Assembly (NCBI GenBank): GCA_964291235.2
Contig: OZ219815.1
Span: forward strand, 1,056,001 to 1,120,000
Length of the DNA stretch: 64,000 nt
Source: Vicinamibacteria bacterium
Lineage (GTDB): Bacteria; Acidobacteriota; Vicinamibacteria; Marinacidobacterales; Marinacidobacteraceae
Direction: 5' to 3'
The position numbers were made by a program, and so were the translations under genes. The notes under the pieces are model-generated. The model saw only the letters and a program-made list of their open reading frames with translations. It searched no databases and was not told the origin of the DNA. Shown in pieces: positions 21,891 to 62,940 of the stretch. How positions within the stretch are numbered: position 1 is the stretch's first letter; each line of letters opens with the position of its first letter.

Positions 21891-21928
21891 ATCTCTTGGG
21901 CGGAAGAAGAATCCGGGATAGGGGGGGC

Positions 21929-50300: not shown

Positions 50301-50774
50301 CTGATGCTCACCGGGACCGCGTTCGGGATCATCATGACCGGGATCGGGGTGATCTCATTGGCGGGGATCGTGGTCAATAACGCCATCGTCCTCTGCGATT
50401 TCGTGCGCCAGCTCCGCGAGCGGGGCCTCAGCCGGCACGACGCGGTGGTGGAAGCGGGGTCCATCCGGCTTCGCCCGGTGCTCCTCACGGCCGTGACCAC
50501 GGTGCTCGGCCTCGTTCCCCTGACGCTCGGCCTCAACATCGACTTCTTCAACCTCTCCGTCTCCACGGGCGGCGAGAGTTCGCAGTTCTGGGCCTCCATG
50601 GGCGTCGCGGTGATCTTCGGCCTCACCGTCGCGACGGTCCTCACCCTGGTAGTGGTCCCGGTCACCTACGACAGCCTCGACGGCCTCTCCGAGGCCGTCG
50701 CGGACTGGCGCAAGCGACGCAGCACCCAAGCACAGAATGTCGGCGGAGGCGCCCTCCACCCCGCAGGAACGTAG
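47355..50774 (+). CDS. RND efflux permease (AcrB/MdtB-like)
   Basis: GMLVDNAVVIVEN, GIVVNNAIVLCD, RLRPVLLT. Confidence 0.96.
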   Translation: MNITKYAIRHRLSVYFLILILCLGGVGVYVSMPRESFPEVEVPFILVYTIYPGVSPTDMETLVTRPIETELKAVSGIKEISSTTSEGMSSIAVEFNPETDLETALASVREKVDLAKSDLPPEAEDPRVQDMDFSQVPIMMITLSGPVGSQRLTEVAEDIQEDLEALPGVNRVNVIGGRVREVHVQVDPKRLAFFELSLADVVVAVARENRNVPGGEVAVGGLEYLVRLPAEVRLPSEIEDFVIKVRDGEPVFVRDVADVVFGFEDESSRSRVDQEPSVTLSVEKRTGANLVSVADLVNAELGRWDEMLPEGISTAVVGDISVEIRRMVNELENNVISGLLLVVGCLMAFVGLRNSFFVGVAIPLSMMASFLVLGWIGYTLNMMVLFSLILMLGMLVDNAVVIVENIYRHREHGDAGPDAAYEATTEVARPVIASTITTLCAFSPLLIWPGIIGDFMSYLPVTLIIGLTASLVVALIINPTLCAHLMKPPRRGVKKANAEEHAFRRGYRRLLKWSLRPGPDAGTRSWFFRNWALPAAFVLFLGIGMALALTGMFFQTNVLLPVVAGFAGIGVLAFVLQGICWLVWSLIRRPFGWTPYLTDHRSGWIWMMCAVLVGTVGVYTQIGKGVELFPEVEPRQISIDVETTAGSSLDASDGIVQQIEGLTTGTVDVKHQVANVGSTGVSMNPGGGGGGSPNRSQVTLYLHERADREVRNTFTTMEQVRAGLADIVGANVKVDAPQDGPPTGAPVSVRILGDELDEIERLAEDVKARIRGIEGLVNLDDDLEGGKPELRVEVNREEAMRSGVDTQIIAATVQTGILGAEASKYRVGEDEHDIRVRLAPEARASLDDIGELTVPDDDGIPVPIRTVAELKHGVGPAAVRRVDLNRVATIEGDVVRDSGRTEASVREEVAAELDAMEWPPGYRWEFSGANQEEQQATAFLSRAFVIALLLILMVLVTQFDSLILPLTIITSVALSVIGVLWGLMLTGTAFGIIMTGIGVISLAGIVVNNAIVLCDFVRQLRERGLSRHDAVVEAGSIRLRPVLLTAVTTVLGLVPLTLGLNIDFFNLSVSTGGESSQFWASMGVAVIFGLTVATVLTLVVVPVTYDSLDGLSEAVADWRKRRSTQAQNVGGGALHPAGT

Positions 50775-51230
50775 GAGCGCCGGTCTCCGACCGGCATCGC
50801 TCCCCCCAGGGGAGCGAAACGCACTTCGCCGATCAGCCCCACGTCACCCCGGCACGGGAACGCCGGCCTCCAGGCCGGCACAGCCCGCCACAGGCGGGCG
50901 GCGGTCCGGACCCCCCCACCGCCAAACGATCCCCCTCTCGGCGCGTACCCCCACCAGCCTGGGTGGCACCCCGGCACGGGAACGCCGACCTCCAGGTCGG
51001 CACAGCCCCGCGAAGCGGGGCGGCGGCCCGGCTCCCCCACCGCCAGGATGGTTCCCCTCTCGGCATGGACCCCACCAGCCCCCACGTCGCGCCGGGGAGC
51101 GAAACGCGCATCGCTGATCAGCCGCACGTCACCCCGGCACGGGAACGCCGACCTCCAGGTCGGCACAGCCCGCCGTAGGCGGGCGGCGGGAAGGAACCTC
51201 CAGTTCCAAGGTGGTCCCGTCTCGGCAGCG
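50772..51230 (+). repeat. REP-like cluster
   Basis: Three GGCACGGGAACGCCG(G/A)CCTCCAGG(C/T)CGGCACAGCCC units plus GGAGCGAAACGC subrepeats. Confidence 0.88.
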
Positions 51231-51254: not shown

Positions 51255-52517
51255 TCAAGGCCCCAAAGCACCGCACGGGATCACGGAGACCCCGTCGCTC
51301 CGCCGGTATCCGTAACCGCTCCCCACAATCACTCCCAGGGCCGCCGGTTTGCCGACCGCGGTCGTGTCCACGCGTTGTGCGAACTGAAGCAGGTTCGCGG
51401 CTGCCTCTTCGACCCGACCCGTCCCCAGCTTGATCTCGAATCCAGCCCAGCGGCCGGGACTCGCCTCCACAATGGCATCGACCTCAAGGTCTGTGTTGTC
51501 CCGGTAGTGGTACACCCTCGCTCTGGCGGCCTGGGCATAGATGCGCAGGTCACGGATGACCATGGATTCGAACAGGAAGCCGAACCACTCGAAATCCGTG
51601 AGCAGGCGGTCAGGTCCAGCGCCCAGCGCCGCCACCGCAAGAGAGGGATCCACGAAATGGCGTTTCGGCGAGGTCCGCAGCCGGGACCGGGAACGGAGCC
51701 GCGGCGCCCAGGCCGGCTGGTCTTCGACGACCATCAGTCTCTCGAGCGCCGCCAGGTACCCGCGAGCGGTAGGCGGCTTCAAGTGGTCGTCCGGTCCGTT
51801 GGCGTCGCGGGTGATCGTCGCCAGTGAAGCGCAGGTGGCCACGTTGCGACCGAGTGACTGAAGGAAGCGCCGCACCCTCTCGGGATCACGCCGGATTCCG
51901 TCCACGCGTTCAAGATCTGCCCGGCAGACATCTTCCAGATAGTCCCGGTTGGCCTGCAGGGCGGCATGGGTGGGCGAACTGAGCTGTCCGGGCCAGCCAC
52001 CGGCGCACACGAGTTCCGCCAGCTCTTGGGCGGAAAGCTGTGCCTCTTCTGCGGCTGTCGGCTCTCCGTCAAGAAGAGCGCCCAGGGAAATCTCGCCGGT
52101 GGAGCGGCCAAGTTCCGATAGGGACATCGGGCGTAACCGGAGGCGGCTTATCCTCCCGGCCCCGGTGTGCCAGGTCGTGTCGTCGGGGGGGACCGCCGAG
52201 CCGGTCAGAATGAACTGATTGGACGCGCGACGCTCGTCAACAGCCCGCCTGACGTGGTTCCACAGGACCGGAGCGAGTTGCCATTCGTCAATTAGCCGGG
52301 GCGTCTCCCCTTTGAGAACCAGCCTTGGGTCCACGGCGAGCGCTTCGCGCGCCTTCTGATCCACATCCAGCAGCACCTCGCTCGCCGAGGCGTGCCGCCC
52401 CGTCTCGGTTTTGCCGCAGGCTCGGGCACCCTCCACCAGGACGGCGCCCGCGGAGGTGAGACGGTCGGCGAGTTCTCGATCAGCGATGCGAGGACGGTAG
52501 TTTTGTACTTTGGGCAA
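51255..52517 (-). CDS. AAA ATPase + DUF4143 (COG1373-like)
   Basis: GARACGKT, IDEWQ, LTGSA, GGWP, SPKRHFVDP, EVDAIV...FEIK. Confidence 0.9.
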   Translation of the reverse strand: MPKVQNYRPRIADRELADRLTSAGAVLVEGARACGKTETGRHASASEVLLDVDQKAREALAVDPRLVLKGETPRLIDEWQLAPVLWNHVRRAVDERRASNQFILTGSAVPPDDTTWHTGAGRISRLRLRPMSLSELGRSTGEISLGALLDGEPTAAEEAQLSAQELAELVCAGGWPGQLSSPTHAALQANRDYLEDVCRADLERVDGIRRDPERVRRFLQSLGRNVATCASLATITRDANGPDDHLKPPTARGYLAALERLMVVEDQPAWAPRLRSRSRLRTSPKRHFVDPSLAVAALGAGPDRLLTDFEWFGFLFESMVIRDLRIYAQAARARVYHYRDNTDLEVDAIVEASPGRWAGFEIKLGTGRVEEAAANLLQFAQRVDTTAVGKPAALGVIVGSGYGYRRSDGVSVIPCGALGP

Positions 52518-52633: not shown

Positions 52634-52807
52634 ACGGCGGCGCGCAGTGCTGGGTATCGATGGAGGCGGCGGTGATCTTCGGTCCTCACCGTCGTGACCG
52701 TCCTGCCCCTAGTCGTCGTCCCGGTCACCTACGACAGGCTTGCGGACGCGGTCACTCGCTGGCGCAAGAGGCACACCGCCGAGGACCCTCCATCCAGCGG
52801 GACCTGA
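52634..52807 (+). pseudogene. Degenerate duplicate of the RND permease 3' end
   Basis: QCWVSMEAAVIFG/LTVVTVLPLVVVPVTYDRLADAVTRWRKR...GT-stop versus QFWASMGVAVIFGLTVATVLTLVVVPVTYDS...WRKR...GT-stop (50565..50774). Confidence 0.9.
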
Positions 52808-52869: not shown

Positions 52870-52956
52870 GGAGGGGTGCAAGAGTGGCTGAATTGGCCAG
52901 CCCGGAAAGCTGGTGTACCGGCAACGGTACCGTGGGTTCGAATCCCACCCCCTCCG
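52870..52956 (+). tRNA. tRNA-Ser(GGA), long variable arm, CCA not encoded
   Basis: Acceptor GGAGGGG/CCCCTCC; anticodon stem CCAGC/GCTGG; variable arm GTACCG-GCAA-CGGTAC; T-arm GTGGG-TTCGAAT-CCCAC; G discriminator. Confidence 0.92.
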
Positions 52957-52960
52957 CCGG

Positions 52961-53782
52961 TTGGGGGTTCCGATCCTCGGCGTTATGAGTGTGGATCGCA
53001 TCCGTAGCGAAGACGTGTTGCGGGTCCTGACGCCGATCTGGACCCGCATCCCCGAGACCGCCCGCCGCGTCCGGCAGCGAATCCGTGCCGTGCTCCGTTG
53101 GTCCTGGGCGCACGGCTACGTGTCGGAGAACGTGGCCGGCGAGGGGATAGACGGCGCGCTCCCGGCCATGCCGCACGTCAAGGAGCACTTCCGGGCGCTG
53201 CCGTACCAGGAGGTGGCTGCGGCGCTTACGACCGTGGAGAAGTCGCGAGCGAGCAAGGCGGTGAAACGTTGCCCCCGGTTCCTGATCCTGACCGCTGCTC
53301 GATCAGGGGAGGTGCGAGGCGCCACGTGGGCTGAAATCGACCTTGACGCACGGGAATGGCGGATTCCCGGTGGGCGCATGAAGGGGGGCCGAGAGCATCG
53401 CGTTCCGCTGTCTGACGCGGCGCGGGACATCCTCGTGCGGGCAAGGGGGCTGGAGGACGGGAGCGGACTGGTCTTCCCCTCGCCGACGCGGACGGGCCGA
53501 CCGCTCAGCAACATGGCCCTGACGAAAATCCTCCGCGATCAAGAGCTCGCCGACCGGGCGACCGTGCACGGTTTCCGGAGCGCCTTCCGGGATTGGTGCG
53601 CGGAAACGGGGAAACCGCGGGAAATCGCGGAGGCCGCGCTGGCTCACACGGTTGGGGGAGTCGAGGGCGCCTATTTCCGCTCGGATCTGTACGCGCGGCG
53701 GCGCGTGCTCATGGACCAGTGGGCGGAGTTCCTGGCCGGGACCGAGGCGAAGGTCGCGCGGCTGTATCGAACCCGATCTTGA
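52961..53782 (+). pseudogene. P4-type tyrosine integrase lacking the N-terminal arm-binding region
   Basis: TAARSGE, MKGGREH, HGFRS, LAH, GAY catalytic set is present; homology begins mid-protein right after the tRNA. Confidence 0.8.
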
Positions 53783-54199
53783 TCCTCGGGACGGCGGGGT
53801 GTTGCCGTCGGGACAGCGCCATGAGGTGCAGCAAGACAGTGTCCATCAGGGCGAAGCGGTCGCTTTAGAGGTTCCTTGAGGGTGTGGGGCCGAAGACATC
53901 CTTCGCGTCCACGTCGTCTACTCGCCGCGCGAGGTCGTGGACGTGCTCGCCGGCTACGGGATCCGGCCGCGGCTGGCGCTCGCGCTCCCGTAGGGTTTCC
54001 AATGGGGGCTTTCCGGGCGGACTTCCGGCGCTACTGGCGGTTCGGTTCCTTCTGCGGGGTGCGCTTCCGGCGGAGCACGAAACTCCCCGCGGCGTCTCTT
54101 CCTTCCAGGGGCAGCACTTCCAGCCTCCATCGCTTCGCGTCGAACGGCGCGCGCGGCGACGGTCCGCTTTCTCCCGACCTCGCCTTCGCCACCAGGGCC

Positions 54200-54441
54200 T
54201 CAACGTCTTCCCGCAGTTCCGCTATTTCGGTCGCGGTCCAGCCCTCGTCTGGAAGGTCGGGCACGATCTCCTCGAAGCGGCACCACCACCGACGCCCACC
54301 GTGCGGGCGGTGGCGCAGATCGTCTCCGAACCCTCGGAGCCGGGCGGCTACCTCGAAGGCGAGTGGCAGGACATCGACCTGCTGGGCTGCATCTTCCCGG
54401 AGGGCGGCCAGAAGTCGAACCTTGGGGTCCCCAACTTGTGA
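54200..54441 (+). pseudogene. C-terminal remnant of a lipoprotein-array member (boundaries approximate)
   Basis: QDIDLLGCIFPEGG matches the DIDALRCIFPEGG termini of the downstream genes. Confidence 0.55.
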
Positions 54442-54454
54442 TACTAGTGGCGTT

Positions 54455-55603
54455 GTGTTGTGCGTTATTTGGGTGCTTGCCGCCCTCTTGTTCGTCGGCT
54501 GCGGCGGCGGCACGGACAGCACGCCCGCCGCGTCGCCCACTACCCCGGCGCCCGCGCCCGCGCCGCCCCCCCCGCCGCCCGAAGACCTGGTCGTTCCGGC
54601 CGCCGAAGCGGGAAAGGTCGCGCCCGACCGGATCGCGCTCACGCTCACTTCGGAGGCGGAAACCCCGCTTCCCGACACGGCCTACCAGTGGATCACGGAC
54701 GAGCACTCGGGCTGGGTGTTTCCCGCCGAGGGCCGCACGGACGACGAGGGCAGAATCGACGCTACCTGGATCCCCGGGTTGCCCGGGGTGGGGGAGCTGA
54801 CCCTGGAGTTCGAGGAGGCGGGGGAAGAGAGGACGTTTGAGTTCCAGACGTTCAGCGTGGCGCCCCCGGCGCCGCCGTGGGCTCAGGTTGTGCTCCGGCT
54901 CAACCAACCTTGGGTGGCGACCGGGTATTCCATCGACATGACTCCCCTGGCGGACCCGGCCGGGACGTACTACGTCGCAACGGGCTGGTCGCCCGCGGGC
55001 TACGCGGGCCTCCAGCGGGGCGGAACCCTCTTCGACCACCAGTTGCAGTTCTCCATGTGGGACGCCGAGGACGGTGAAGCGGAGGTTGTCGAGACGGCCG
55101 ACGGGACGGTTTGCCGCCGCTTCGACCACGAAGGGCATGGGGTCCAGTGCTCCGCGGAGTATCCGTGGTCGGTCGGCCCGACCTACCGCTTCGAGATCAC
55201 CGAGGTCCTTTCGGACGGGAACAGCCTCGTTTCGCTGCGCGTGACCGACCTCGCAACCGGGGACGAACGCTACATCGGCACCCTCTCGCGCCCCGGTTCG
55301 ATGGGCGATACTGGACTGTACACGTTCAACGAGGACTTCCGGCGCGACGCGCCGACCTGCCTCGACCAGCAGGTGCGCGCGGTCGCTTTCCGTCGAGCGA
55401 TGGTCCGCACGAACGCGATGGAATGGGTCCCGGTCGGGTCCGGGACCCCGTACCCCGAGGAAGATTCCGAGAACCCCGGAACTCCGGCTTGCGCCAATTT
55501 CGCCGTGGAGCCGGGTCCCGATGGTCTGGAGTTGGTGATGGGCGGCACCACGATCAGCGACCCCCACGGCACCCGGTTCTTCGTCATTCCCGAGGGGGGC
55601 TGA
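54455..55603 (+). CDS. Lipoprotein with a DUF3472-like domain (start possibly frameshifted)
   Basis: FVGC-GGGTD, Pro linker; GYAGLQ...FSMWD...FDHEGHG...YPW...TYRF...FNEDF; ends IPEGG. Confidence 0.75.
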   Translation: MLCVIWVLAALLFVGCGGGTDSTPAASPTTPAPAPAPPPPPPEDLVVPAAEAGKVAPDRIALTLTSEAETPLPDTAYQWITDEHSGWVFPAEGRTDDEGRIDATWIPGLPGVGELTLEFEEAGEERTFEFQTFSVAPPAPPWAQVVLRLNQPWVATGYSIDMTPLADPAGTYYVATGWSPAGYAGLQRGGTLFDHQLQFSMWDAEDGEAEVVETADGTVCRRFDHEGHGVQCSAEYPWSVGPTYRFEITEVLSDGNSLVSLRVTDLATGDERYIGTLSRPGSMGDTGLYTFNEDFRRDAPTCLDQQVRAVAFRRAMVRTNAMEWVPVGSGTPYPEEDSENPGTPACANFAVEPGPDGLELVMGGTTISDPHGTRFFVIPEGG

Positions 55604-56643
55604 TGCGCCGCCTCCTGCTCGTCGCCCTGCTCGCCGCCGGCTGCGGCGGGGGCACCGACGGCCAGCCCGTCGCGCCGCCCACCACCCCGGCCCCCGCTCC
55701 CGAGCCGGAGCCGGCGCCACCGCCACCCCCACCGCCGGAGCCGCCGCCTGCCCCGACCGGCATCCGGGTGGCGGAAGTGGGCCAGGACTTCATCGTGTGG
55801 GAATGGGACCCGGTGGAGGGCGCGACCGGCTACGAACTGGAAGTGTTCCCGACCGAACTGTCCATCGCCACCGAGGAACTCACCGTCCGGGTGGAGGGGC
55901 TGGAGCCGGACACGGAGTTCGTGATTTACGTGCGGGCGGTGCGGGAGACGGCGGGCGGACGCGCGGCGGGGCCGTGGTCGGCGCCCAGCCCCGTGAAGAC
56001 CTGGGGCGAGCCGAGGGTCTGCACGGACGAACTCCGACGCGCCCGGGGTTTCGGGGACGCCAGGCTGCCGCGCGAGTGGAATGGGACGCCCTTCCGCGTG
56101 GACCTGTACGACCACTTCCCGGAGATCGCGGGCATCGGCTACCCGGAGAGCCAACTGGCGGTGGTCCAGGAATTCGCCGACCGGATCGAGGAACAGATCG
56201 GCTACCCGATCATCGGGGCGGGGAGCGTCATTCCCGTGCCGGAGAACATGCCGAAAGGCTGGAACCGTCCATCGACAAACAACCTGCCGAACTGCGGGCG
56301 ACGGAAACGGCACCAGATCCTCGGGGTTCACCTAAGCGCGTCGCCGCGAGGGCATAGCGGTGGCGGTGGGTTCCGTGCGTTCCCGCGATGTGCGGTGTTG
56401 GAGTATTGGGTGGGCGAGGATTCACCGTCCGATTCCGCATGGGGCCGCACGGTTGTCCGTCACGAACTGTTCCATCTGTTCGGCTTCGGACACAGCCTGG
56501 AGACGCACCCGCACGAGGCGGACCTTGGCGGCGTCCCGATGTCGCCGGAGTTGACGGTGCCCGAAGATTACGGCCTTGCGATCTTCGCCCCCACGTTCGA
56601 CGACATCGACGCGCTGCGCTGCATCTTCCCGGAGGGGGGCTGA
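55603..56643 (+). CDS. Lipoprotein: Fn3 domain + zincin metalloprotease-like domain
   Basis: AAGC lipobox; PAPTGI...WEWDPVEGATGY...GLEPDTEF Fn3; HELFHLFGFGH; ends CIFPEGG. Confidence 0.85.
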   Translation: MRRLLLVALLAAGCGGGTDGQPVAPPTTPAPAPEPEPAPPPPPPPEPPPAPTGIRVAEVGQDFIVWEWDPVEGATGYELEVFPTELSIATEELTVRVEGLEPDTEFVIYVRAVRETAGGRAAGPWSAPSPVKTWGEPRVCTDELRRARGFGDARLPREWNGTPFRVDLYDHFPEIAGIGYPESQLAVVQEFADRIEEQIGYPIIGAGSVIPVPENMPKGWNRPSTNNLPNCGRRKRHQILGVHLSASPRGHSGGGGFRAFPRCAVLEYWVGEDSPSDSAWGRTVVRHELFHLFGFGHSLETHPHEADLGGVPMSPELTVPEDYGLAIFAPTFDDIDALRCIFPEGG

Positions 56644-57359
56644 TGCGACGCTGGGCACTCGCGGCCCTGCTCGCGGCCGGCTGCGGGACGGGCACGGACG
56701 GCAAGCCGGTCGCACCGCCCACCACCCCGGAGCCGGCGCCGGCCCCGCCACCGCCACCACCGGAACCGAGGGTCTGCGCCGACGAGCGGGAGCACGCGCT
56801 GGCGTTCGGAGCCGTCCTGGTCGAAGAGTGGGACGGCACGCCGTTCCGCGCCTACTTTGACGAAACGATCCCCGAGAGTGAGCGGGCGATGATGGAGTAC
56901 TCCATCGAGGTCGTGGAGCGGCTGTCGAAGCGGCTCGAAGCCCAGCTTGGCTACCCGATCCTCGAAGTGGCCGGCTGGATCGGGGAAGACGAGCGGGGAT
57001 TCGGGATTCGGAATGATGGCTGGGTCGCGGACTGCCGAGGCGTGCGCCCGGGGGGGATCGTCACCACCGTCATCCCGGTCCCGGCGGGCGGTGCGAGGGC
57101 TCTCACCGGCTGCGGCGTGGTCGCCTGGGTCGGCAACGTGATCTACATGAGCGGCGACGGCGCGATGCCGCACGAAATCTTCCACCTGCTCGGGTTCGCC
57201 CACTCGCCGGGCTCGCCCCCGGACGTGTCGAAATCGCCGCCGGGGGTGGGGGTTACCATGTCTCTGCCGCTCACTATGGTCCGCGAGTCCGGCAGGACCT
57301 TGGGCGTTACCTTCGAGGACGTGGACGCGCTGCGCTGCATCTTCCCGGAGGAGGGCTGA
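56643..57359 (+). CDS. Lipoprotein, zincin metalloprotease-like
   Basis: AAGC lipobox; HEIFHLLGFAH; ends CIFPEEG. Confidence 0.85.
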   Translation: MRRWALAALLAAGCGTGTDGKPVAPPTTPEPAPAPPPPPPEPRVCADEREHALAFGAVLVEEWDGTPFRAYFDETIPESERAMMEYSIEVVERLSKRLEAQLGYPILEVAGWIGEDERGFGIRNDGWVADCRGVRPGGIVTTVIPVPAGGARALTGCGVVAWVGNVIYMSGDGAMPHEIFHLLGFAHSPGSPPDVSKSPPGVGVTMSLPLTMVRESGRTLGVTFEDVDALRCIFPEEG

Positions 57360-57360
57360 A

Positions 57361-58504
57361 ATGCACCGACTACTGCTCGTCGCCCTGCTGCTCGCCGGCT
57401 GCGGCGGCGGCACGGACAGCACGCCCGTCGCACCCACCACCCCGGCCCCGGCCCCGCCGCCGCCCCCCCCCCCCGCCCGAAGACCTGGTCGTTCCGGACG
57501 CCGAAGCCGGAAAGGTCGCGCCCGACCGGATCGCGCTCACGCTCACTTCGGAGGCGGGCGTCCCGCTTCCCGACACGGCCTACCAGTGGACCACGGACGA
57601 GCACTCGGGCTGGGTGTTTCCCGCCGAGGCCCGCACGAACGACAAGGGCGAGATCGACGCTGCCTGGATCCCCGGGTTTCCCGGCGTGGGGAAGCTGACC
57701 CTGGAGTTCGAGGAGGCGGGGGAAGAGAGGACGCTTGAGTTCCAGACGTTCAGCGTGGCGCCCCCGAGACCGCCGTGGGCTCACCTGACGCTCTGGCTCG
57801 ACAATCGTCGGGGGGCGACCGGCTACTCCGTCGACATGACTCCCCTGGCGGACCCGGTCGGGACGTACTACGTCGCAACGGGCTGGTCGCCCGGGGGCTA
57901 CGCGGGCCTCCAGCGGGACGGGCTCATTTTCCACCGGCAGTTGCAGTTCTCCGCGTGGGACGCCGAGGACGGCACGGAGGCGGCGGTAGTCGAGACGGCC
58001 GACGGGGTGGTTTGCCAACGCTTCGACCACGAAGGGCATGGGGTCGAGTGCTCCGCGGAGTATCCGTGGTCGGTCGGCCAGACCTACCGCTTCGAGATCA
58101 CCGAGGTCCTTGCGGACGGGAACAGCCTCGTTTCGCTGCGCGTAACCGACCTCGCAACCGGGGACGAACGCTTCATCGGAACCCTCTCGCGCCGCGGTCG
58201 GTTGGGCAGTAGTGGCTTGTACACGTTCAACGAGACCTTTCAGCGCGACGCGCCGACCTGCCTCGACCAGCCGGTGCGAGCGGTCGCTTTCCGTCGAGCG
58301 ATGGCCCGCACGAACGCGATGGAATGGGTCCCGGTCGGGTCCGGAACCCCGTACCCCGTGGAAGATTCCGGGAACCCCGGAACTCCGGCTTGCGCCAATT
58401 TCGCCGTGGAGCCGGGTCCCGATGGTCTGGAGCTGGTGATGGGCGGCACCACGATCAGCGACCCCCACGGCACCCGGTTCTTCGTCATTCCCGAGGGCGG
58501 CTGA
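57361..58504 (+). pseudogene. DUF3472-like lipoprotein paralog, frameshifted in a C12 tract
   Basis: Signal in the 57361 frame, body in the 57614 frame; C12 at 57463-57474; C11 or C14 restores the frame. Confidence 0.8.
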
Positions 58505-58537
58505 TGCGCCGCCTCCTGCTCGCCGCCCTGCTCGCCG
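58504..58537 (+). pseudogene. Truncated start of a further array member
   Basis: TGATGCGCCGCCTCCTGCTCGCCGCCCTGCTCGCCG, as at 55601, then homology ends. Confidence 0.7.
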
Positions 58538-58799
58538 AGGGCATGAAGGGGGGCCGTTCGTACCAGTTGTCGTGCTTCCCGGTGAGACGTCGCCGCCAGG
58601 CAACCTGGCGGGCGCTCACCGTGGTACCCGGTGCGGCCCATGAACGCGGCTCCTGGCCGTTCACCGGTGGCCAGCAGACCCGGCGCACCAAGATTCCCCG
58701 CCCCGGGTCACGTCGGCGGGGTCTCCCCAGTAGGTGTCGCCGTCGCACCGGACTGGGTGCCGCCGCACTCGACACACAGCTGCTGGTTCCTCGGGGCGC

Positions 58800-59132
58800 T
58801 CATGTTGCGTTCTCCGGGCCGACCGGTTCGGCCTTCCAGATCTTCCGGAAGGTGATGCCGATGGTGCCGCGCTGGACGAGCCAGGCGCACACGCACGCGG
58901 TCCAGGTGAACTCCCCCCGGAAACTGAAGCTGGTATGCACGATCTCGCGAAGCGCGGCCCCGAGCAGAAGGACGAATAGCACGAAGAACGGCCAGGCAAG
59001 ATAGCGCAGGGCGCGGTGCCCCCGCCGCCGGAGCGCGCGGAGCGGCACTCCGAAGGCGAGCCCCAACCCAAGAGCCGCGAAGGTGGCGACCAACACTTCG
59101 GTGACGGCATAGGTGATGAGGACGTGACTCAA
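58800..59132 (-). CDS. Small membrane protein, paralog of 59129..59446
   Basis: TTG overlaps the upstream stop; shares ALRRRGHRALRYLAWPF and WKAEPVGPE. Confidence 0.65.
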   Translation of the reverse strand: MSHVLITYAVTEVLVATFAALGLGLAFGVPLRALRRRGHRALRYLAWPFFVLFVLLLGAALREIVHTSFSFRGEFTWTACVCAWLVQRGTIGITFRKIWKAEPVGPENAT

Positions 59133-59446
59133 ACCTCGGCCTCCGGGCCGACCGGCTCGGCCTTCCAGGTCTTGCGGAACGTGGTACGGATGCTGCCGCG
59201 CTGGACGAGCCAAGCCCAAAAGCAGGCGTCCAACATGAGTCCGGAGGAGATGCCCGTGGCTTCGCGGAAAATCATCGCGAGAAGCAGGATGAACAGCCCG
59301 ATGAACGGCCAGGCGAGATAGCGCAGGGCGCGGTGCCCCCGGCGCCGGAGCGCCCGGAGCACCGCCCCGAGGGCGAGCCCCAAGCCGAGACCCGCGAACG
59401 TGACGATCAGCAGGTGCGCAATGGCATGAATGGCGACGACTCTCAT
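59129..59446 (-). CDS. Small membrane protein
   Basis: 105 aa with hydrophobic segments; tandem paralog of 58800..59132. Confidence 0.65.
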   Translation of the reverse strand: MRVVAIHAIAHLLIVTFAGLGLGLALGAVLRALRRRGHRALRYLAWPFIGLFILLLAMIFREATGISSGLMLDACFWAWLVQRGSIRTTFRKTWKAEPVGPEAEV

Positions 59447-59780
59447 CGCATCTCCCTGATCGGCTCGGGCCGGTAGTAGAGCCAGTCGCTCCACGGTCCC
59501 GCCTTGAGAGCGGAGCGGTCCCCCAGCACGTCCGGGCAGAAGAGCCCAGCGACCTGGAGCCCCAAATCGGTCTGACCCTGCCGGTCGTTCGTCAGGCGAA
59601 CGGATATGGGAGCCCCCCCTTGAACCGCCTCCCGCGGGTGGTTAACCGCGAGTGTCCGAAGCCGAACAGGTGGAAGGTCTCGTGGGCCAGCCAGCGATTC
59701 CTGGCCGTCCGCCAATCCCATCAGGATCGCGGGGGACAGCATTCCCGCACTCCGTCGCATGTCATTCATCTCGGGTACCC
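59443..59780 (-). pseudogene. Frameshifted remnant of a zincin lipoprotein paralog
   Basis: Minus strand encodes LAHETFHLFGFGHS, then in another frame NHPREAVQGGAPISVRLT (compare THPHEADLGGVPMSPELT). Confidence 0.7.
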
Positions 59781-60087
59781 GGTAGGCCATCCGGGGCGTG
59801 TCATATTCAGCAAACATTGCGTATAAATAGCGCACAATCAACGATTTCCACAGAACAAAATTGTAAGGTGCCCGGCGACACGGCACAAACGGGATTCCGT
59901 GTCGCCGCGAGACCTTCTGCGCGCGGGTGGGGACGGCGTGTTGCTCTGCGGGCCGGGACGCTTCCGCGTTCGGGGCGGCTTCGTCGTCCCACCACCGACA
60001 TGCCCCCGATCACGGCGGCGGGTTGACCGCACCCGACGCACCGCCGTACGCTGCCTTCGTCAGTCCCCGACAGCCAAGGAGAGAGTT

Positions 60088-61815
60088 GTGCGCAGGTCGA
60101 ATCAGGTGCTCGTCGGTCTCGCGGTCGCCGTTTCCGCGGTGCTCGCGGGGTGTGCTCAGCAAGCCGACCCGGCGGACGCGATCTTCCACGGTGACCACAT
60201 CGTCACCATGGACCCGCAGCAGCCCACCGTGGCAGCGGTCGCGGTGCGTGGCGAGACCATCGTGGCCGCCGGAGCGATGGACGAGGTGATGGCGCTCGAA
60301 GGGCCGTCCACGCGGGTCGTGGATCTGGGCGACCACGCGCTCCTGCCCGGTTTCATTGACGCCCACGGCCACTTCCTGGGAGCGGGCCGCGACCAGGTGT
60401 TGCTGGTCGGGCTGCATCCGCCGCCGGTGGGAGACGTCAACAACATCGACGACATCGTGCGCAAGATCCGGGCGTGGATCGACGAGCACGATATTCCTCC
60501 CGGAGAGCCGGTGACCGGACGCGGCTACGACGACTCGCTGCTCGAGGAAGGCCGGCATCCCACCCGCGAGGATCTGGACCGCGCGTCAACCGAACATCCC
60601 ATCATCCTCACCCACGTGTCGGGACACCTGGTCGCGACCAACTCCGCGCTTCTCGCGGCCAGCAACATCACTGCCGACACGCCGGATCCGCCCGGCGGCC
60701 TGATCCGCCGCATCGAAGGCACGATGGAGCCCGACGGAGTGCTGGAAGAAACCGCCCGCGACCTGCTGGCGTTCGAGCGCAGGCCGACCCCGTCCGGGGA
60801 AGAACTCGACAACCTGATCCGCCGGTCCATCGACATCTACCTGAGCCACGGCACCACCACCGTCCAGGACGGCGGCATCACCCCGGAGCACGCGGCCGTC
60901 CTCCAGGAGGCCGCCGACCGGGAGCCCTTCAATGCGGATGTCGCGGCCTTCATCCGCAAACGCGGCGCGCCCGGCGAGACCCCGGACGTGCCGTACGCGC
61001 GCGGGTATCGCAACGGGTTCCGGGTGGGCGGGGTGAAGCTCATGCTGGACGGTTCTCCCCAGGGACGCACGGCCTGGGTCACGGTCCCGTACGAGGAGGG
61101 CCCGCCGGGCGCACCGCCGGACTACGTGGCCTACGGCGTGATGGATCCCGACGACTACAAGGCCCAGGCGGACCAACTGATCGAGGCGGGCATCCCCTTC
61201 ATTGTGCACGCCAACGGCGACGCGGCGATGGATCTCATGATCGACGGAGTGGACGAGGCGGTCGCGGACCTGGATCCCATGCCCGACCACCGCTCCGTGA
61301 TCATCCACGCCCAGCTCATGCGCGCGGACCAGCTCGACCGCGCCAAGGAGCTGGAGGTGGTGCCCTCGTTCTTCGCGGCGCACGCCTTCTTCTGGGGCGA
61401 CTGGCACCGGCGCAGCTTCGGCGAGGAGCGGGGCAACAACGTCAGCCCCTTGGGTTGGGCCCTCGAGCGGGGGGTGAACTTCACGGTCCACAACGACGCC
61501 TCGGTGGTCCCGCCGCACATGATGCGCCTGGTCTCGATCGCCGTGAACCGCAAGACGCGTAGCGGGCACATCCTCGGGCCGCACCAGCGGGCAACGGTGA
61601 TGCAGGCGCTACACGCGGTCACCCTCGGGGGCGCCTACCAGTACTTCGAGGAGGACACCAAGGGCTCGATCACGGTCGGGAAGCAGGCGGACCTGGTGAT
61701 TCTGGGGGAGAGCCCGCTGACCGCGGAGCCGGAGAGCCTGGAGTTCATCCCGATTCTGGAGACCTTCTCGCGGGGCAGGTCGGTATTCACGAGGTCGGCT
61801 GAGCCGGGGTCGTAG
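60088..61815 (+). CDS. Amidohydrolase family 3 (YtcJ-like) lipoprotein
   Basis: SD AAGGAG + GTG at 60088; LAGC; PGFIDAHGH, HANGD, IHAQ, HND, KGSITVGKQADLVIL. Confidence 0.92.
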   Translation: MRRSNQVLVGLAVAVSAVLAGCAQQADPADAIFHGDHIVTMDPQQPTVAAVAVRGETIVAAGAMDEVMALEGPSTRVVDLGDHALLPGFIDAHGHFLGAGRDQVLLVGLHPPPVGDVNNIDDIVRKIRAWIDEHDIPPGEPVTGRGYDDSLLEEGRHPTREDLDRASTEHPIILTHVSGHLVATNSALLAASNITADTPDPPGGLIRRIEGTMEPDGVLEETARDLLAFERRPTPSGEELDNLIRRSIDIYLSHGTTTVQDGGITPEHAAVLQEAADREPFNADVAAFIRKRGAPGETPDVPYARGYRNGFRVGGVKLMLDGSPQGRTAWVTVPYEEGPPGAPPDYVAYGVMDPDDYKAQADQLIEAGIPFIVHANGDAAMDLMIDGVDEAVADLDPMPDHRSVIIHAQLMRADQLDRAKELEVVPSFFAAHAFFWGDWHRRSFGEERGNNVSPLGWALERGVNFTVHNDASVVPPHMMRLVSIAVNRKTRSGHILGPHQRATVMQALHAVTLGGAYQYFEEDTKGSITVGKQADLVILGESPLTAEPESLEFIPILETFSRGRSVFTRSAEPGS

Positions 61816-62053
61816 TCGGCCCAGCGCCGGCCTGGAGGTCCGGGGCTCCTGGGCGGATCAGGCTTGGGAGTTTCGCGGCCTGCGGCCGCGATGCCTGCCT
61901 GGAGGCTGGCGCTTTTTGCCTGGAGGCCAGCGTTCCCAGGCGCCTGCGTTTCTGGTCGGTCGGCGAACCGGGTTCCCGCCGGCGTTTCCGAGCCAACGGG
62001 CCGACGCTGCTGCTGCGAAACTGGCTCGGGAAGGCACGCTCTTTCATCTGCTT

Positions 62054-62488
62054 ATGGAGCGCGGATGGGATCCGGAGCTCGCCTATACTGCAGACCAGCG
62101 GATACACGCCATGACTTCGGAAACCGCCGTTGCCCGACTGCAACCGGTAATGGCGGAGCTCCGGCAGATGCGCGAGAGCATGGTCACGAAGACGGATTTG
62201 GCGGGCTTCGCCGCGAAGACGGATTTGGCGGGCTTCGCCACGAAGGCGGATTTGGCGGGCTTTGCCACGAAGGCGGACCTGGCGGGCCTTGCCACCAAGG
62301 CGGACCTGGCGGGCCTTGCCACCAAGGCGGACCTGGCGGGCTTTGCCACTACAGCGGATCTGACCAACCTGCGGCGTGAGTTGGCGGAGCGCGAGGTGCG
62401 CCTCATCAAGTGGGTCTTCGGAGTGATGCTGGTGCCGGTGGCCCTCATCGTCGCTCTTGTCGTCGGATTCGTGACGCTTCTGCTGTAG
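62054..62488 (+). CDS. DUF1640/CCDC90-like coiled-coil membrane protein with 9-aa repeats
   Basis: Six 27-bp repeats (TKADLAGFA-like) from 62186; ELAEREVRLIKW then TM tail; start uncertain. Confidence 0.75.
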   Translation: MERGWDPELAYTADQRIHAMTSETAVARLQPVMAELRQMRESMVTKTDLAGFAAKTDLAGFATKADLAGFATKADLAGLATKADLAGLATKADLAGFATTADLTNLRRELAEREVRLIKWVFGVMLVPVALIVALVVGFVTLLL

Positions 62489-62489
62489 C

Positions 62490-62905
62490 TGCCGCCGCCC
62501 GCCTGCGGCGGGCGGTGCCGGTCTGCAAGCCGGCGTTCCCGTGCCTGTGTGACATCGAGGCTGGGGGGGGCCGCCGAGAGGGGAACCATCCTGACGCTGG
62601 GGGGTTCGTCCCGCCGCCCGCCTGCGGCGGGCTGTGCCGGCCTGGAGGCCGGCGTTCCCGTGCCTGTGTGACATCAAGGCTGGTGGGGTTCCGGCCGAGA
62701 CGGGAACCATCCTGACGCTGGGGGGTTCGTCCCGCCGCCCGCCTGCGGCGGGCTGTGCCGGCCTGGAGGCCGGCGTTCCCGTGCCTGTGTGACATCAAGG
62801 CTGGGGGGGGGTTCCCGCCGAGACGGGAACCATCCTGACACTGAGGGGTCCGTCCCGCCGCCCGCCTGTGGCGGGCTGTGCCGGCCTGGAGGCCGGCGTT
62901 CCAAG
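62490..62905 (-). repeat. REP-like tandem array (about 4 units of about 120 bp)
   Basis: Repeated CCGCCGCCCGCCTGCGGCGGGCTGTGCCGGCCTGGAGGCCGGCGTTCCCGTGCCTGTGTGACATC. Confidence 0.9.
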
Positions 62906-62940
62906 CCCATGCGCCGTGCGGGGGGGTGGCTATCCGCGGG

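What the first reader, a model, noticed from the sequence alone, without database searches (positions are those of the whole stretch)
54385..58537. Modular lipoprotein cassette array: unrelated domains share one head and tail junction
Seen: consecutive genes with non-homologous cores (DUF3472-like, Fn3+zincin, zincin, DUF3472-like) all start signal-GCG(G/T)GTD-x-P-x-A-(P)PTTP-Pro-rich and all end (I/F)PE(G/E)G-stop. The tail codons (CCGGAGGGGGGC or CCCGAGGGGGGC) supply the SD for the next ATG in TGATG/TGAAATG. This gives a conserved junction of about 100 bp at about 55585, 56620, 57340 and 58485, with an orphan tail at about 54390 and an orphan head at 58504. The array follows tRNA-Ser and a tyrosine recombinase retaining its catalytic residues. 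Inference: the junctions act as crossover points so surface-protein cassettes can be added, lost or shuffled while staying translationally coupled, an integron-like system without attC sites.
Basis: partly seen in the sequence, partly recalled or inferred. Interest (0 to 1): 0.75.

Follow-up and report, generated by a model that had tools for sequence, protein, structure and literature searches.

The report
Recombining array of lipoprotein protease genes
A sponge-type marine acidobacterium carries, next to a tRNA gene, a partly decayed row of lipid-anchored protease genes of two unrelated families that share one export "head", and related genomes show that genes have been joined, copied and lost by breaks inside that head.

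Summary
Four co-directional genes share a lipoprotein head and an (I/F)PE(G/E)G-stop tail: DUF3472, Fn3+zincin, zincin, DUF3472. Stop and start overlap or nearly touch (TGATG, TGAAATG), and a GGAGG sits 7-8 nt before each ATG.

Gene D carries a +1 frameshift in a C12 run. Gene A has lost the usual start of its signal peptide. The integrase lacks about 130-150 N-terminal residues.

The array lies in a 7-kb insertion (52969-60003) at the 3' end of tRNA-Ser(GGA). In the six relatives where I could follow this tRNA, homology to the window ends there.

The "zincin" is an unclassified metzincin family found only in this acidobacterial lineage. The DUF3472 genes are relatives of the solved di-glutamate mucinase HC7.

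Breaks inside the head are real. The A/D duplication runs from one lipobox to the next. In two sister species a DUF3472 gene carries the signal peptide of an unrelated neighbouring gene, with the switch inside an 11-nt lipobox stretch.

Nothing supports an integron-like, recombinase-driven system. There are no attC-like hairpins, the integrase is broken, and the other arrays have none.

Verdict: a new variant of a known kind, a birth-and-death lipoprotein array.

The parts
52870..52958 (+). tRNA-Ser(GGA). Its 3' end is the left edge of the strain-specific insertion.
   Evidence: ARAGORN. In 6 of 6 relatives whose tRNA-Ser(GGA) lay in the fetched stretch, homology to the window ends at 52957-52968.
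52969..60003 (.). 7.0-kb insertion (genomic islet) found only in this genome at this site. It holds everything listed below.
   Evidence: Homology to relatives resumes at 60004. In G002 only 38 nt lie between the tRNA and that point; in G014 the RND-to-amidohydrolase gap is 844 nt. No direct repeat of the tRNA 3' end of 12 nt or more occurs in the window.
52985..53782 (+). Remnant of a P4-type tyrosine integrase gene. The catalytic domain is present; the N-terminal 130-150 residues are missing.
   Evidence: Pfam Phage_integrase 5.8e-16. Phage_int_M is matched only from model position 33. Seven full-length paralogs in this genome have 129-163 more residues upstream.
54278..54441 (+). Internally deleted zincin pseudogene (the 'orphan tail'). 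Linker and N-domain start (PTVRAVAQIVSEPSEPGGY) are fused to the tail (WQDIDLLGCIFPEGG). The usual stop is replaced by CAG, and the frame runs on to TGA at 54439-54441.
   Evidence: 54278-54362 is 80-83% identical to the N-domain starts of zincins in G004 and G005. The downstream AAGTCGAAC also follows the stop of G014's zincin.
54455..55603 (+). Gene A: DUF3472 lipoprotein, relative of a di-glutamate mucinase. Cys codon at 54500, C8 run at 54566-54573. The start of the signal peptide is non-canonical, with no Arg/Lys.
   Evidence: Pfam DUF3472 6.1e-32. Model pLDDT 83.7. Foldseek: 4qhw E 5.5e-16; HC7 (8pn5/8pmu) E 1e-13 to 7e-12. HC7 Glu200 aligns with invariant E293.
55603..56643 (+). Gene B: lipoprotein with head, Fn3 domain and metzincin-like domain. 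Cys codon at 55642.
   Evidence: Pfam fn3 9.1e-8. HExxHxxGxxH and Met-turn in alignment A1.
56643..57359 (+). Gene C: lipoprotein with head and metzincin-like domain only. Cys codon at 56682.
   Evidence: No Pfam family above cut-off. Model pLDDT 86.9. VIA-align: snapalysin Z 8.7, MMP-12 8.4, astacin 8.1; the top 40 rows are almost all metzincin-type metallopeptidases.
57361..58504 (+). Gene D: DUF3472 paralog of A (85% amino-acid identity), broken by a +1 frameshift in a C12 run at 57463-57474. Cys codon at 57400.
   Evidence: C12 is the longest homopolymer in the 3.45-Mb genome.
58504..58537 (+). Orphan head: the first 11 codons of a B-type signal peptide, broken just before the lipobox.
   Evidence: Alignment A3. 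Contigs of runs X1, X2 and X3, all from one study, bridge 58537.
59557..59687 (-). Decayed fragment of a zincin C-terminus at the right end of the insertion.
   Evidence: 74-76% identical to the 3' parts of two G010 zincin genes.
55585..55605 (+). Junction A->B: CCCGAGGGGGGCTGATG, with stop and start overlapping. The same type occurs at 56625-56645 (B->C), 57341-57363 (C->D, TGAAATG) and 58486-58506 (D->orphan head).
   Evidence: GGAGG/GAGG sits 7-8 nt before the ATG. The 16S 3' end carries the complement.

Best explanation
The stretch is a lineage-specific, partly decayed tandem array of genes for secreted, lipid-anchored proteases. It sits in a 7-kb strain-specific insertion at the 3' end of tRNA-Ser(GGA).

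Two unrelated enzyme families are involved.
- An unclassified metzincin family. It appears bare, behind an Fn3 domain, or behind another beta-rich domain.
- DUF3472 proteins related to the di-glutamate O-glycoprotein protease (mucinase) HC7.

The shared head is first of all a functional export module. It has a signal peptide with lipobox, a genus-wide motif after the lipidated Cys (C-G-x-G-T-D-G-x-P-V-A-P-P-T-T-P), and a proline-rich tether. The zincin tail (D-x-D-x-L-x-C-x-F-P) is the last conserved element of the catalytic domain. The codons that follow (E-G-G) happen to form a Shine-Dalgarno sequence for the next gene, which starts on or next to the stop (TGATG or TGAAATG).

Because the head DNA is the most alike part of otherwise unlike genes, breaks and joins fall there. 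The process is ordinary homologous or microhomology-mediated recombination, not a dedicated recombinase. It copies, deletes and re-heads whole gene bodies in frame. The result is different arrays in each species, plus debris: an internally deleted zincin, a frameshifted DUF3472 copy, an orphan head and a reversed zincin fragment.

Shown: the gene families, the island boundaries, the head/tail anatomy, the duplication boundaries and the chimeric heads in sister species.

Inferred: lipidation and surface display, translational coupling, protease activity, host glycoprotein or matrix as substrate, and the recombination pathway.
For: Families.
- Pfam DUF3472 and fn3.
- 25 zincins share invariant H177, H181 and M206 and near-invariant E178 and H187, so HExxHxxGxxH and the Met-turn are kept. 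Of four conserved Cys, C14, C45 and C232 are invariant and C131/C157 nearly so.
- The zincin model has pLDDT 86.9. The structural neighbours in the top 40 VIA-align rows are almost all metzincin-type metallopeptidases, Z 8.7-5.6.
- The DUF3472 model matches HC7 and 4qhw. The PDB names HC7 a 'DUF3472 domain-containing protein', and its Glu200 aligns with invariant E293.
- HC7 is called a di-glutamate mucinase in PMC13003899 (passages read).

Island.

The head is a general export module.
- The post-Cys motif is equally conserved whatever the locus or family: 318 of 2000 shuffles reach the observed value.
- Looser versions sit on an M60-like peptidase, a GH113-like protein and an unknown family in relatives, and on other lipoproteins of this genome.

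Recombination at heads.
- Lipobox-to-lipobox duplication.
- Chimeric heads with 95% / 100% identity switching at the lipobox.
- A and D alone carry the zincin-type GG-TGATG ending.
- Signal peptides of unlike neighbours are more alike than after shuffling: 0.53 against 0.33, 0 of 2000 shuffles, 11 pairs from 5 loci.

Expansion and turnover.
- Strict head pattern: 9 in this genome, 0-3 in 15 congeners, 0 in 25 genomes outside the genus.
- Zincin is found in 15 of 15 congeners, DUF3472 in 8 of 15.
- This genome's second array lies beyond the 3' end of tRNA-Ser(TGA). Homology to 13 of 15 congeners starts within two bases of that end.
Against: - No direct evidence shows that any of these genes is expressed, lipidated or active.
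- Only B and C look fully intact in this array, so the locus may be decaying rather than working.
- The crossover stretch in the clearest chimera is only 11 nt. That is short for RecA-dependent recombination, so the pathway is open.
- Head similarity between neighbours rests on 11 non-independent pairs. It could partly reflect a genome-wide effect: cross-family identity is 0.48 for same genome but different locus, against 0.44 for different genomes.
- The C12 frameshift could be an assembly error. The listed contig pieces of the four runs do not span the C12 run.
- VIA-align Z values near 8 are in the range that the tool's own note calls middling.
- The shared 'PE' at the ends of both families remains unexplained.
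Confidence: 0.7

Rival explanations
1. Integron-like cassette system. The neighbouring tyrosine recombinase inserts, excises and reorders promoterless lipoprotein cassettes at the conserved junctions.
For: - The array is co-directional and tightly packed, next to a tyrosine-recombinase gene and a tRNA.
- An orphan head and an orphan tail are present.
- Integrase homologs lie near zincin loci in two relatives, G013 and G003.
Against: - The integrase is P4-type and lacks its N-terminal 130-150 residues.
- No integrase lies in the stretches fetched around this genome's arrays 2 and 3, or around most relatives' arrays.
- The junctions have no attC-like inverted repeats and no excess folding.
- The breakpoints seen lie inside coding heads at plain sequence identity, not at a defined core site.
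Confidence: 0.04
2. Plain vertical paralogy with no special role for the junctions. Head and tail are alike only because of protein-level constraint and strong codon bias, and the arrays grew by ordinary duplication anywhere.
For: - The post-Cys motif and the zincin tail are conserved everywhere, including single genes.
- The identical synonymous sites in the tails are the preferred GC-rich codons in many genomes.
Against: - Both ends of the A/D duplication lie in heads.
- Chimeric genes switch partner exactly at the lipobox.
- The zincin-type junction has been grafted onto DUF3472 genes only here.
- Signal peptides follow the locus, not the family.
Confidence: 0.15
3. Phase-variable contingency locus. 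The C12 run in the linker of D (C8 in A) switches the gene on and off by slipped-strand mispairing.
For: C12 is the longest homopolymer in the genome, lies in coding sequence and sets the frame.
Against: - None of the 13 other DUF3472 heads or 36 zincin heads examined has a run longer than 7 in the 180 nt after the Cys codon.
- The listed contig pieces do not span the tract, so length variation could not be seen.
- It may be a one-off slippage that killed the gene, or a sequencing error.
Confidence: 0.1

Closest known systems
Borrelia hermsii variable major protein system with upstream and downstream homology sequences (PMC6011951; search listing and start of abstract seen)
   Same: Lipoprotein genes with unlike bodies are flanked by a conserved 5' element and a conserved 3' element. 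These are held to be crossover points for homologous recombination.
   Different: That system has one expression site fed from a silent archive by gene conversion, as a programmed immune-evasion switch. Here every gene has its own start and head, all point the same way and are probably co-transcribed. No programmed switching is shown, and the bodies are enzymes of unrelated folds.
Tandem lipoprotein-like (lpl) cluster of the Staphylococcus aureus nuSa-alpha genomic island (PMC4470592; search listing and start of abstract seen). Also recombination between tandem paralogues of T7SS immunity genes (PMC9484751; title and start of abstract seen).
   Same: Variable-copy tandem arrays of secreted or lipoprotein genes in a genomic island, evolving by recombination between neighbouring copies.
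   Different: Those arrays hold paralogs of one family. Here non-homologous catalytic cores share only the head, so recombination yields re-headed chimeras between unrelated genes.
Integron (IntI, attI, attC cassettes; recalled knowledge)
   Same: A co-directional row of tightly packed ORFs beside a tyrosine-recombinase gene.
   Different: No attC-like structures. The integrase is P4-type and truncated. The other arrays have no integrase.
Polymorphic toxin / Rhs / CDI loci with orphan modules (PMC3482391; start of abstract seen)
   Same: A conserved junction separates a constant part from swappable modules. Orphan fragments that keep the junction lie downstream.
   Different: There the variable part is a C-terminal toxin with an immunity gene. 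Here the constant part is an N-terminal export head and the variable part is a whole enzyme, with no immunity genes.
Metzincin metallopeptidases: snapalysin (4hx3), MMPs, astacin, adamalysins, fragilysin
   Same: HExxHxxGxxH, a Met-turn, and the fold. VIA-align Z 8.7 (rmsd 3.4 over 125 residues) to snapalysin, 8.4 to MMP-12, 8.1 to astacin.
   Different: No Pfam family reaches its cut-off. The best PDB sequence match has E 7e-4 and is to an unrelated YbeY-type protein. The family has its own conserved Cys pattern and C-terminal D-x-D-x-L-x-C-x-F-P. It comprises 79 clusters, all unnamed or 'hypothetical'; the few named ones come from Acidobacteria MAGs.
HC7, di-glutamate mucinase of Bacillus cereus (PDB 8pmu/8pn3/8pn5, deposited as 'DUF3472 domain-containing protein'). 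Cited from PMC13003899 (passages read); the primary paper, Narimatsu et al. 2024 Nat Catal, was seen only in its reference list.
   Same: The DUF3472 domain. Foldseek E 1e-13 to 7e-12, rmsd 3.1-3.7 over about 250 columns. Profile E 9e-13. HC7 Glu200 aligns with invariant E293 in F-x-E-D-F.
   Different: About 19% identity. Here there is a lipoprotein head and an Ig-like N-domain in place of HC7's carbohydrate-binding module. Activity is untested, and the second catalytic Glu is placed only by inference (E226 in F-D-H-E-G).
Lipoprotein export signal (LES) of Bacteroidota surface lipoproteins (PMC5080379; abstract read)
   Same: A short conserved motif with acidic charge directly after the lipidated Cys, shared by unrelated surface hydrolases.
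   Different: The LES is K-(D/E)2 or Q-A-(D/E)2 and is proven by mutagenesis. Here the motif is G-x-G-T-D-G-x-P, in Acidobacteriota, and its function is only inferred.

Membership tests
Integron | Intact IntI-type tyrosine recombinase next to the array | tested here: not met
   Pfam gives Phage_integrase and Phage_int_M (P4-like). The N-terminal 130-150 residues are absent compared with 7 paralogs.
Integron | attC sites (imperfect inverted repeats that fold as hairpins) at cassette ends | tested here: not met
   No recurrent inverted repeat at the four junctions. Single-strand DNA folds give z -0.64, +0.76, +0.41 and +1.12 against shuffles.
Integron | attI site and Pc promoter | not tested
   No consensus applicable to this lineage was available.
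Bacterial lipoprotein | Signal peptide ending in a lipobox (L-x-x-C) with Cys as first mature residue | tested here: met
   L-A-(A/G)-G-C follows a hydrophobic stretch in A-D and in 47 relatives. This is a motif reading only. No signal-peptide predictor was available, and acylation is not testable here.
Metzincin clan | HExxHxxGxxH zinc site | tested here: met
   H177 and H181 are invariant; E178 and H187 are present in 90% or more of 25 sequences.
Metzincin clan | Met-turn downstream of the zinc site | tested here: met
   Invariant G203 and M206 in G-x-x-M-S. Its position under the zinc site is inferred from the fold match.
Metzincin clan | Metzincin fold | tested here: met
   The top 40 VIA-align rows are almost all metzincin-type metallopeptidases, Z 8.7-5.6. 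The best Foldseek rows are also metzincins, but with E 8e-3 or weaker. Z near 8 is middling by the tool's own note.
Any described metallopeptidase family (Pfam) | Score above the family's curated cut-off | tested here: not met
   Only sub-threshold hits around HExxH to Astacin, Reprolysin and Zincin_1. One divergent array-2 member just reaches Peptidase_M10 (24.2 against 24.0).
DUF3472 / di-glutamate mucinase (HC7) family | DUF3472 domain above the Pfam cut-off | tested here: met
   111.8 and 105 bits against a cut-off of 24.8.
DUF3472 / di-glutamate mucinase (HC7) family | Catalytic Glu200 of HC7 conserved | tested here: met
   HC7 F-Q-E-D-W aligns with F-x-E-D-F. E293 is invariant in 13 sequences. 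The residue was identified by chain index and by the shorter alignment of the E200A chain.
DUF3472 / di-glutamate mucinase (HC7) family | Second catalytic Glu and mucinase activity | tested here: inconclusive
   The E-G-x-G motif (invariant E226) aligns with HC7 G-E-G-T-G. I did not see which residue the authors name, and activity is not testable here.
tRNA-linked genomic island | Insertion at the 3' end of a tRNA gene, absent from relatives | tested here: met
   Homology stops at the tRNA end in 6 of 6 relatives and resumes at 60004.
tRNA-linked genomic island | Direct repeat of the tRNA 3' end at the far boundary (attR) | tested here: not met
   No second copy of the last 12-29 nt of the tRNA anywhere in the window.
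Phase-variable contingency gene | Frame-setting simple repeat whose length varies in the population and is kept in homologs | tested here: inconclusive
   The C12 run is present. No homolog has a run over 7 apart from C8 in A. The listed contig pieces do not span the tract.
Tandem array evolving by recombination at shared heads | Breakpoints of duplications, deletions and chimeras fall in the shared head | tested here: met
   A/D unit boundaries. G011/G012 chimeras. The orphan head breaks one base before the lipobox codons.

The most novel reading that the evidence does not exclude
The head is more than an export signal. It is a portable, in-frame joining module ('lipobox shuffling'). Its conserved DNA, together with the SD-bearing tail, would let unrelated hydrolase bodies be captured, duplicated, discarded and re-headed without losing export or coupled translation. 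That would give sponge-associated Vicinamibacteria a fast-turning repertoire of surface proteases carried on tRNA-linked islets. Its post-Cys motif G-x-G-T-D-G-x-P-V-A-P-P-T-T-P would be a so far undescribed surface-lipoprotein sorting signal of Acidobacteriota.
Probability: 0.3. Interest if true: 0.65.

Novelty: new variant of a known kind. Interest (0 to 1): 0.45.

Why it matters
Tandem arrays that evolve by recombination between copies are familiar. Here the recombining sequence is an export head shared by genes with unrelated enzyme bodies. The outcome resembles exon shuffling in a bacterium: whole enzymes are re-headed in frame, and the chimeras can be seen in sister species.

The work also gives three concrete leads.
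- An unclassified metzincin family confined to a marine, sponge-type acidobacterial lineage.
- A set of lipoprotein relatives of the recently solved di-glutamate mucinase. This points to host glycoprotein or matrix degradation as a symbiont trait.
- A conserved motif after the lipidated Cys that could be tested as a lipoprotein sorting signal, in a phylum where sorting is unstudied.

Tried and rejected
Read evidence for alternative orders.
- Four runs hold the stretch, but all are short-read contigs from one study, probably the source.
- Six of the seven reported joints have sides of 21-24 letters, or lie outside the array.
- The one with a 50-letter side (56743 back to 55780, runs X2 and X4) could equally be a paralog from array 2 laid at 90% likeness.
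- I draw no conclusion from these joints. The listed contig pieces do not span the C12 run.

The 16-nt exact repeat at 53376 (inside the integrase) and 58541 (just after the orphan head). No further similarity follows, and tblastn of the integrase against 58400-60100 gives nothing better than E 1.2. I treat it as chance or a microhomology.

attC-like structure at junctions: none.

Direct repeat of the tRNA end (attR): none.

Phase variation as a family trait: rejected, since long runs occur only in A and D.

Gene conversion inferred from identical synonymous sites in the zincin tails: rejected as uninformative. The same preferred codons are used in many genomes.

Pfam on the small ORFs of the islet (54031-54330 minus, 53865-54203 minus, 58800-59219 minus, 59129-59494 minus, 59443-59886 minus): nothing above cut-off.

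Sequence search of the zincin profile against the PDB: only weak hits.

Foldseek of the zincin model: no match at E <= 0.001.

Literature.
- 'Marinacidobacterium': 0 papers.
- 'DUF3472': 5 papers hold the term, 4 were listed; three are on centipede venom and one on Drosophila viruses.
- 'lipobox' with recombination, paralogous, tandem, signal peptide: nothing listed describes head swapping between unrelated lipoprotein genes (listing only).

My first translation of the integrase was one base out of frame. It was repeated correctly.

Complex prediction, the exhaustive representative search and the protein atlas were not used.

Full report
WHAT IS THERE

The window is G000:C1:1056001-1120000 of a 3.45-Mb, 68% G+C genome in two contigs. 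Named relatives found with the zincin protein are MAGs labelled Acidobacteriota / Vicinamibacteria / 'Candidatus Marinacidobacterium'.

On the + strand lie, in order:
- tRNA-Ser(GGA), 52870-52958.
- An integrase-family ORF.
- Gene A, 54455-55603: Pfam DUF3472, 6e-32.
- Gene B, 55603-56643: fn3 9e-8 plus HELFHLFGFGH.
- Gene C, 56643-57359: HEIFHLLGFAH.
- Gene D, 57361-58504: DUF3472, 7e-30.
- An 11-codon orphan head starting at 58504.

All four genes have a hydrophobic stretch, G-C-G-(G/T)-G-T-D, (P)PTTP and a proline-rich linker. All four end (I/F)PE(G/E)G-stop. Stops and starts overlap as TGATG, or are one base apart as TGAAATG. A GGAGG or GAGG lies 7-8 nt before each ATG. The 16S rRNA of this genome ends in the usual complementary sequence. 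The strict head pattern occurs 9 times in this genome and never when read backwards in any of 41 genomes.

- D is not one frame. A C12 run at 57463-57474, where A has C8 followed by GCCG, puts the head +1 out of frame with the body. C12 is the longest homopolymer in the whole genome; only 7 runs reach 9 or more.
- A has no Arg/Lys start to its signal peptide. It resembles the other heads only from about 54474.
- The integrase begins right at the tRNA. It matches the central-domain model only from position 33 and has no arm-binding domain. Seven paralogs elsewhere in the genome have 129-163 more residues upstream.
- The 'orphan tail' is an internally deleted zincin gene. 54278-54362 is 80-83% identical to the linker and N-domain start of zincins in G004 and G005, and it is joined directly to WQDIDLLGCIFPEGG. 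The usual stop reads CAG.
- A further decayed zincin C-terminus lies on the minus strand at 59557-59687.

So in this array only B and C look fully intact.

THE SETTING IS A STRAIN-SPECIFIC ISLET

The RND pump gene upstream and the amidohydrolase gene downstream are present in 14 and 15 of the 15 congeners. I fetched the stretch between them, or beside them, from 10 genomes. Six of these held tRNA-Ser(GGA).

In all six, homology to the window runs up to 52957-52968 and stops. It resumes at 60004-60090. In G002 only 38 nt separate the two points. In G014 the whole gap between the two genes is 844 nt. Others hold 0.8-4 kb of unrelated DNA. The window's 52969-60003 is thus an insertion at a hot spot. 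I found no repeat of the tRNA end that would mark attR.

This genome's second array (C1:399236-404684, five zincin lipoproteins) ends 476 nt from the 3' end of tRNA-Ser(TGA). In 13 of 15 congeners homology with that conserved tRNA cluster starts within two bases of that end. A single zincin gene lies between tRNA-Ala and tRNA-SeC.

The third array (C2:900976-905213) holds three DUF3472 genes, the third frameshifted, followed by a zincin. It has no tRNA within the 13 kb fetched.

WHAT THE GENES ENCODE

Zincin.
- 25 family members were aligned. H177, H181, G184 and M206 are invariant, and E178 and H187 nearly so. This gives HExxHxxGxxH plus a Met-turn.
- The Cys pattern is conserved. The C-terminal D226-x-D228-x-L230-x-C232-x-F234-P235 is an integral part of the domain.
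- No Pfam family reaches its cut-off in B or C. The PDB sequence search is weak.
- A search of 5.8 billion proteins finds 79 clusters. All are unnamed or 'hypothetical'; the few named ones are from Acidobacteria MAGs.
- The AlphaFold model of C has pLDDT 86.9 and pTM 0.81. Foldseek matches are weak, with best E 8e-3, and are nearly all metzincins.
- VIA-align gives snapalysin Z 8.7 (rmsd 3.4, 125 aligned), MMP-12 8.4, proMMP-9 8.4, astacin 8.1 and ADAM17 8.0. Almost all of the top 40 rows are metzincin-type metallopeptidases.
- I call it an unclassified metzincin family. It occurs bare (C), behind Fn3 (B), or behind another beta-rich domain beginning (V/L)(R/Q)A(V/L)V.

DUF3472.
- The model of A has pLDDT 83.7 and shows an Ig-like N-domain plus a beta-sandwich.
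- Foldseek gives 4qhw (a Bacteroides 'two-domain sugar hydrolase') at E 5.5e-16. It gives HC7 (8pn5, 8pn3, 8pmu) at E 9e-14 to 7e-12, rmsd 3.1-3.7.
- The PDB lists HC7 as a 'DUF3472 domain-containing protein', and the family profile hits it at E 9e-13.
- HC7 is described as a di-glutamate mucinase of Bacillus cereus in PMC13003899 (passages read). The primary paper was seen only in that reference list.
- In the HMMER alignment, chain residue 200 of HC7 (F-Q-E-D-W) aligns with F-x-E-D-F. That Glu is E293, invariant in 13 sequences. The E200A chain gives a shorter alignment that stops before this motif, which fits the assignment.
- A second invariant Glu (E226, F-D-H-E-G) aligns with HC7's G-E-G-T-G. 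I could not confirm that it is the second catalytic residue.

Looser versions of the head sit on an M60-like peptidase (G014), a GH113-like protein and an unknown family (G005/G011). The common theme is secreted, probably surface-tethered, enzymes that cut proteins or glycoproteins. That the target is host matrix or glycoprotein is an inference from the habitat.

HEAD AND TAIL: FUNCTION FIRST

The motif after the Cys is conserved across the genus whatever the family or locus. In the shuffling test, 318 of 2000 shuffles reach the observed neighbour similarity for this part. Other lipoproteins of this genome carry a looser C-G-G-D...TTP-(AP)n. This fits a constraint from export, sorting or tethering. 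It is comparable in idea to the lipoprotein export signal of Bacteroidota (PMC5080379, abstract), but is untested.

The zincin tail belongs to the domain. P-E-G-G also ends five zincins with no co-directional gene found behind them: L036, L038, L050, L057 and L059. So its use as a Shine-Dalgarno sequence is a secondary benefit. The TGATG-type junction recurs in the arrays of G004, G005, G006 and G010.

(a) The A and D regions align at 92% identity. High identity starts at the lipobox (54496/57396). It runs through the body, the stop and the next gene's signal peptide, and ends just before that gene's lipobox (55640/58537). That is one lipobox-to-lipobox unit of about 1145 nt. Beyond 58537 the D copy continues into unrelated DNA. 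Two independent breakpoints therefore lie at a lipobox.

(b) G005 has the order unknown-family gene 1, unknown-family gene 2, DUF3472.
- In G011 and G012 the DUF3472 gene has 30 nt of upstream DNA plus a signal peptide 95% identical to G005's unknown-family gene 2. This part is only 45% identical to G005's own DUF3472 head.
- The 84 nt after the Cys codon are 100% identical to G005's DUF3472 gene, and 57% identical to the unknown-family gene.
- All three sequences share only GGCTGCGGCGC at the switch.
- Whole-locus comparison shows that G011 lacks one unit of about 1.1 kb relative to G005. G012 has a further rearranged form, with a remnant of the unknown gene between two DUF3472 copies.

(c) Of 15 DUF3472 copies, 12 end PE-TAG, one ends PR-TAG, and only A and D end PEGG-TGATG. 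That is the zincin-type junction, as if joined at the P-E codons.

(d) Signal peptides of unlike neighbours are more alike (0.53) than after shuffling within families (0.33 +/- 0.045; 0 of 2000 shuffles). This rests on 11 pairs from 5 loci and is not free of genome effects.

Content also turns over.
- The strict head pattern occurs 9 times here, 0-3 times in the 15 congeners, and 0 times in 25 genomes of other genera.
- Zincin is found in 15 of 15 congeners, in 3 of 9 genomes from other genera of the family, and in 0 of 16 genomes of the two other families of the order.
- DUF3472 of this type is found in 8 of 15 congeners only.

WHAT DOES NOT HOLD

- Nothing points to site-specific recombination. 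The integrase is a truncated P4-type gene, of a kind that explains how an islet comes to sit at a tRNA gene, not how cassettes would be shuffled.
- tblastn of the integrase against all fetched loci finds homologs only near the zincin loci of G013 and G003. It finds none in the stretches around this genome's arrays 2 and 3, nor in the ten syntenic gap regions.
- The junctions have no recurrent inverted repeats. As single-stranded DNA they fold no better than shuffles.

OPEN POINTS

- Whether the C12 frameshift is real, variable or an assembly error. The listed contig pieces do not span the tract, and no homolog has a comparable run.
- Which recombination pathway acts on identities as short as 11 nt.
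- Why both families end in a hydrophobic residue followed by Pro-Glu.
- Whether any of these genes is expressed.
- The read-based test for alternative orders was uninformative: contigs only, one study, short joint sides.

VERDICT

This is a real and well-described feature. Its best reading is a birth-and-death array of lipoprotein protease genes on a tRNA-linked islet, in which the shared export head doubles as the preferred breakpoint. It is a new variant of a known kind. The closest analogues are:
- the homology-flanked lipoprotein cassettes of relapsing-fever Borrelia;
- tandem lipoprotein-like clusters in genomic islands;
- orphan-module arrays of polymorphic toxins.

The literature searches named above turned up no description of this family or of head swapping between unrelated lipoprotein genes. 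They cover only the held library, and I read only listings and abstracts except where stated.

Noticed in passing
window 50809-51201 and 62445-62928: Tandem copies of a repeat of about 121 nt: 3 copies after the RND pump gene and 4 copies in inverted orientation 11.5 kb away, with arms 79-97% complementary. Pieces of it also occur at the same intergenic site in relatives. It looks like a REP/MITE-like intergenic repeat family.
   Followed up: partly
window 50621-50677 and 52684-52740: A 57-nt direct repeat (86%) of the 3' end of the RND pump gene brackets about 2 kb holding the 121-nt repeats and a DUF4143/AAA_14 ATPase gene (51255-52517, minus strand). That ATPase gene has no match in the stretches fetched from G014, G005 and G009, only a distant one (67%) in G013, and 80-86% matches in the six others. 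This looks like a second insertion with target duplication.
   Followed up: partly
window 21920-23533 (minus strand; G000:C1:1077920-1079533): An amidohydrolase paralog with one in-frame TGA. Matches with a single in-frame TGA (or TAG in G006 and G001) recur in several congeners, and the genome has a tRNA-SeC. It may be a selenoprotein or a shared pseudogene.
   Followed up: no
window 62151-62366: A 27-nt coding tandem repeat of 6 or more copies, giving K-(T/A)-D-L-A-G-(F/L)-A-(A/T) repeats in the ORF 61916-62488.
   Followed up: no
window 58800-59219 and 59129-59494 (minus strand): Two tandem paralogous small hydrophobic ORFs inside the islet, with DNA repeats 79-87% identical. No Pfam family reaches its cut-off.
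   Followed up: partly
G000:C2:903280-904445 (locus L057 7281-8446): The third DUF3472 gene of the C2 array is split into two overlapping frames, so it is also a frameshifted copy.
   Followed up: partly
L025 12922-15273 (G014): An M60-like peptidase (Peptidase_M60 4.8e-72) with a looser version of the same lipoprotein head lies 3 kb from G014's DUF3472/zincin array. This fits a mucin-type glycoprotein-degrading theme.
   Followed up: no
window 53904-53980: A 77-nt stretch of the islet is 86% identical, in reverse orientation, to a piece of the unrelated 4-kb insertion that G005 carries at the same tRNA-Ser site. Its nature is unknown.
   Followed up: no
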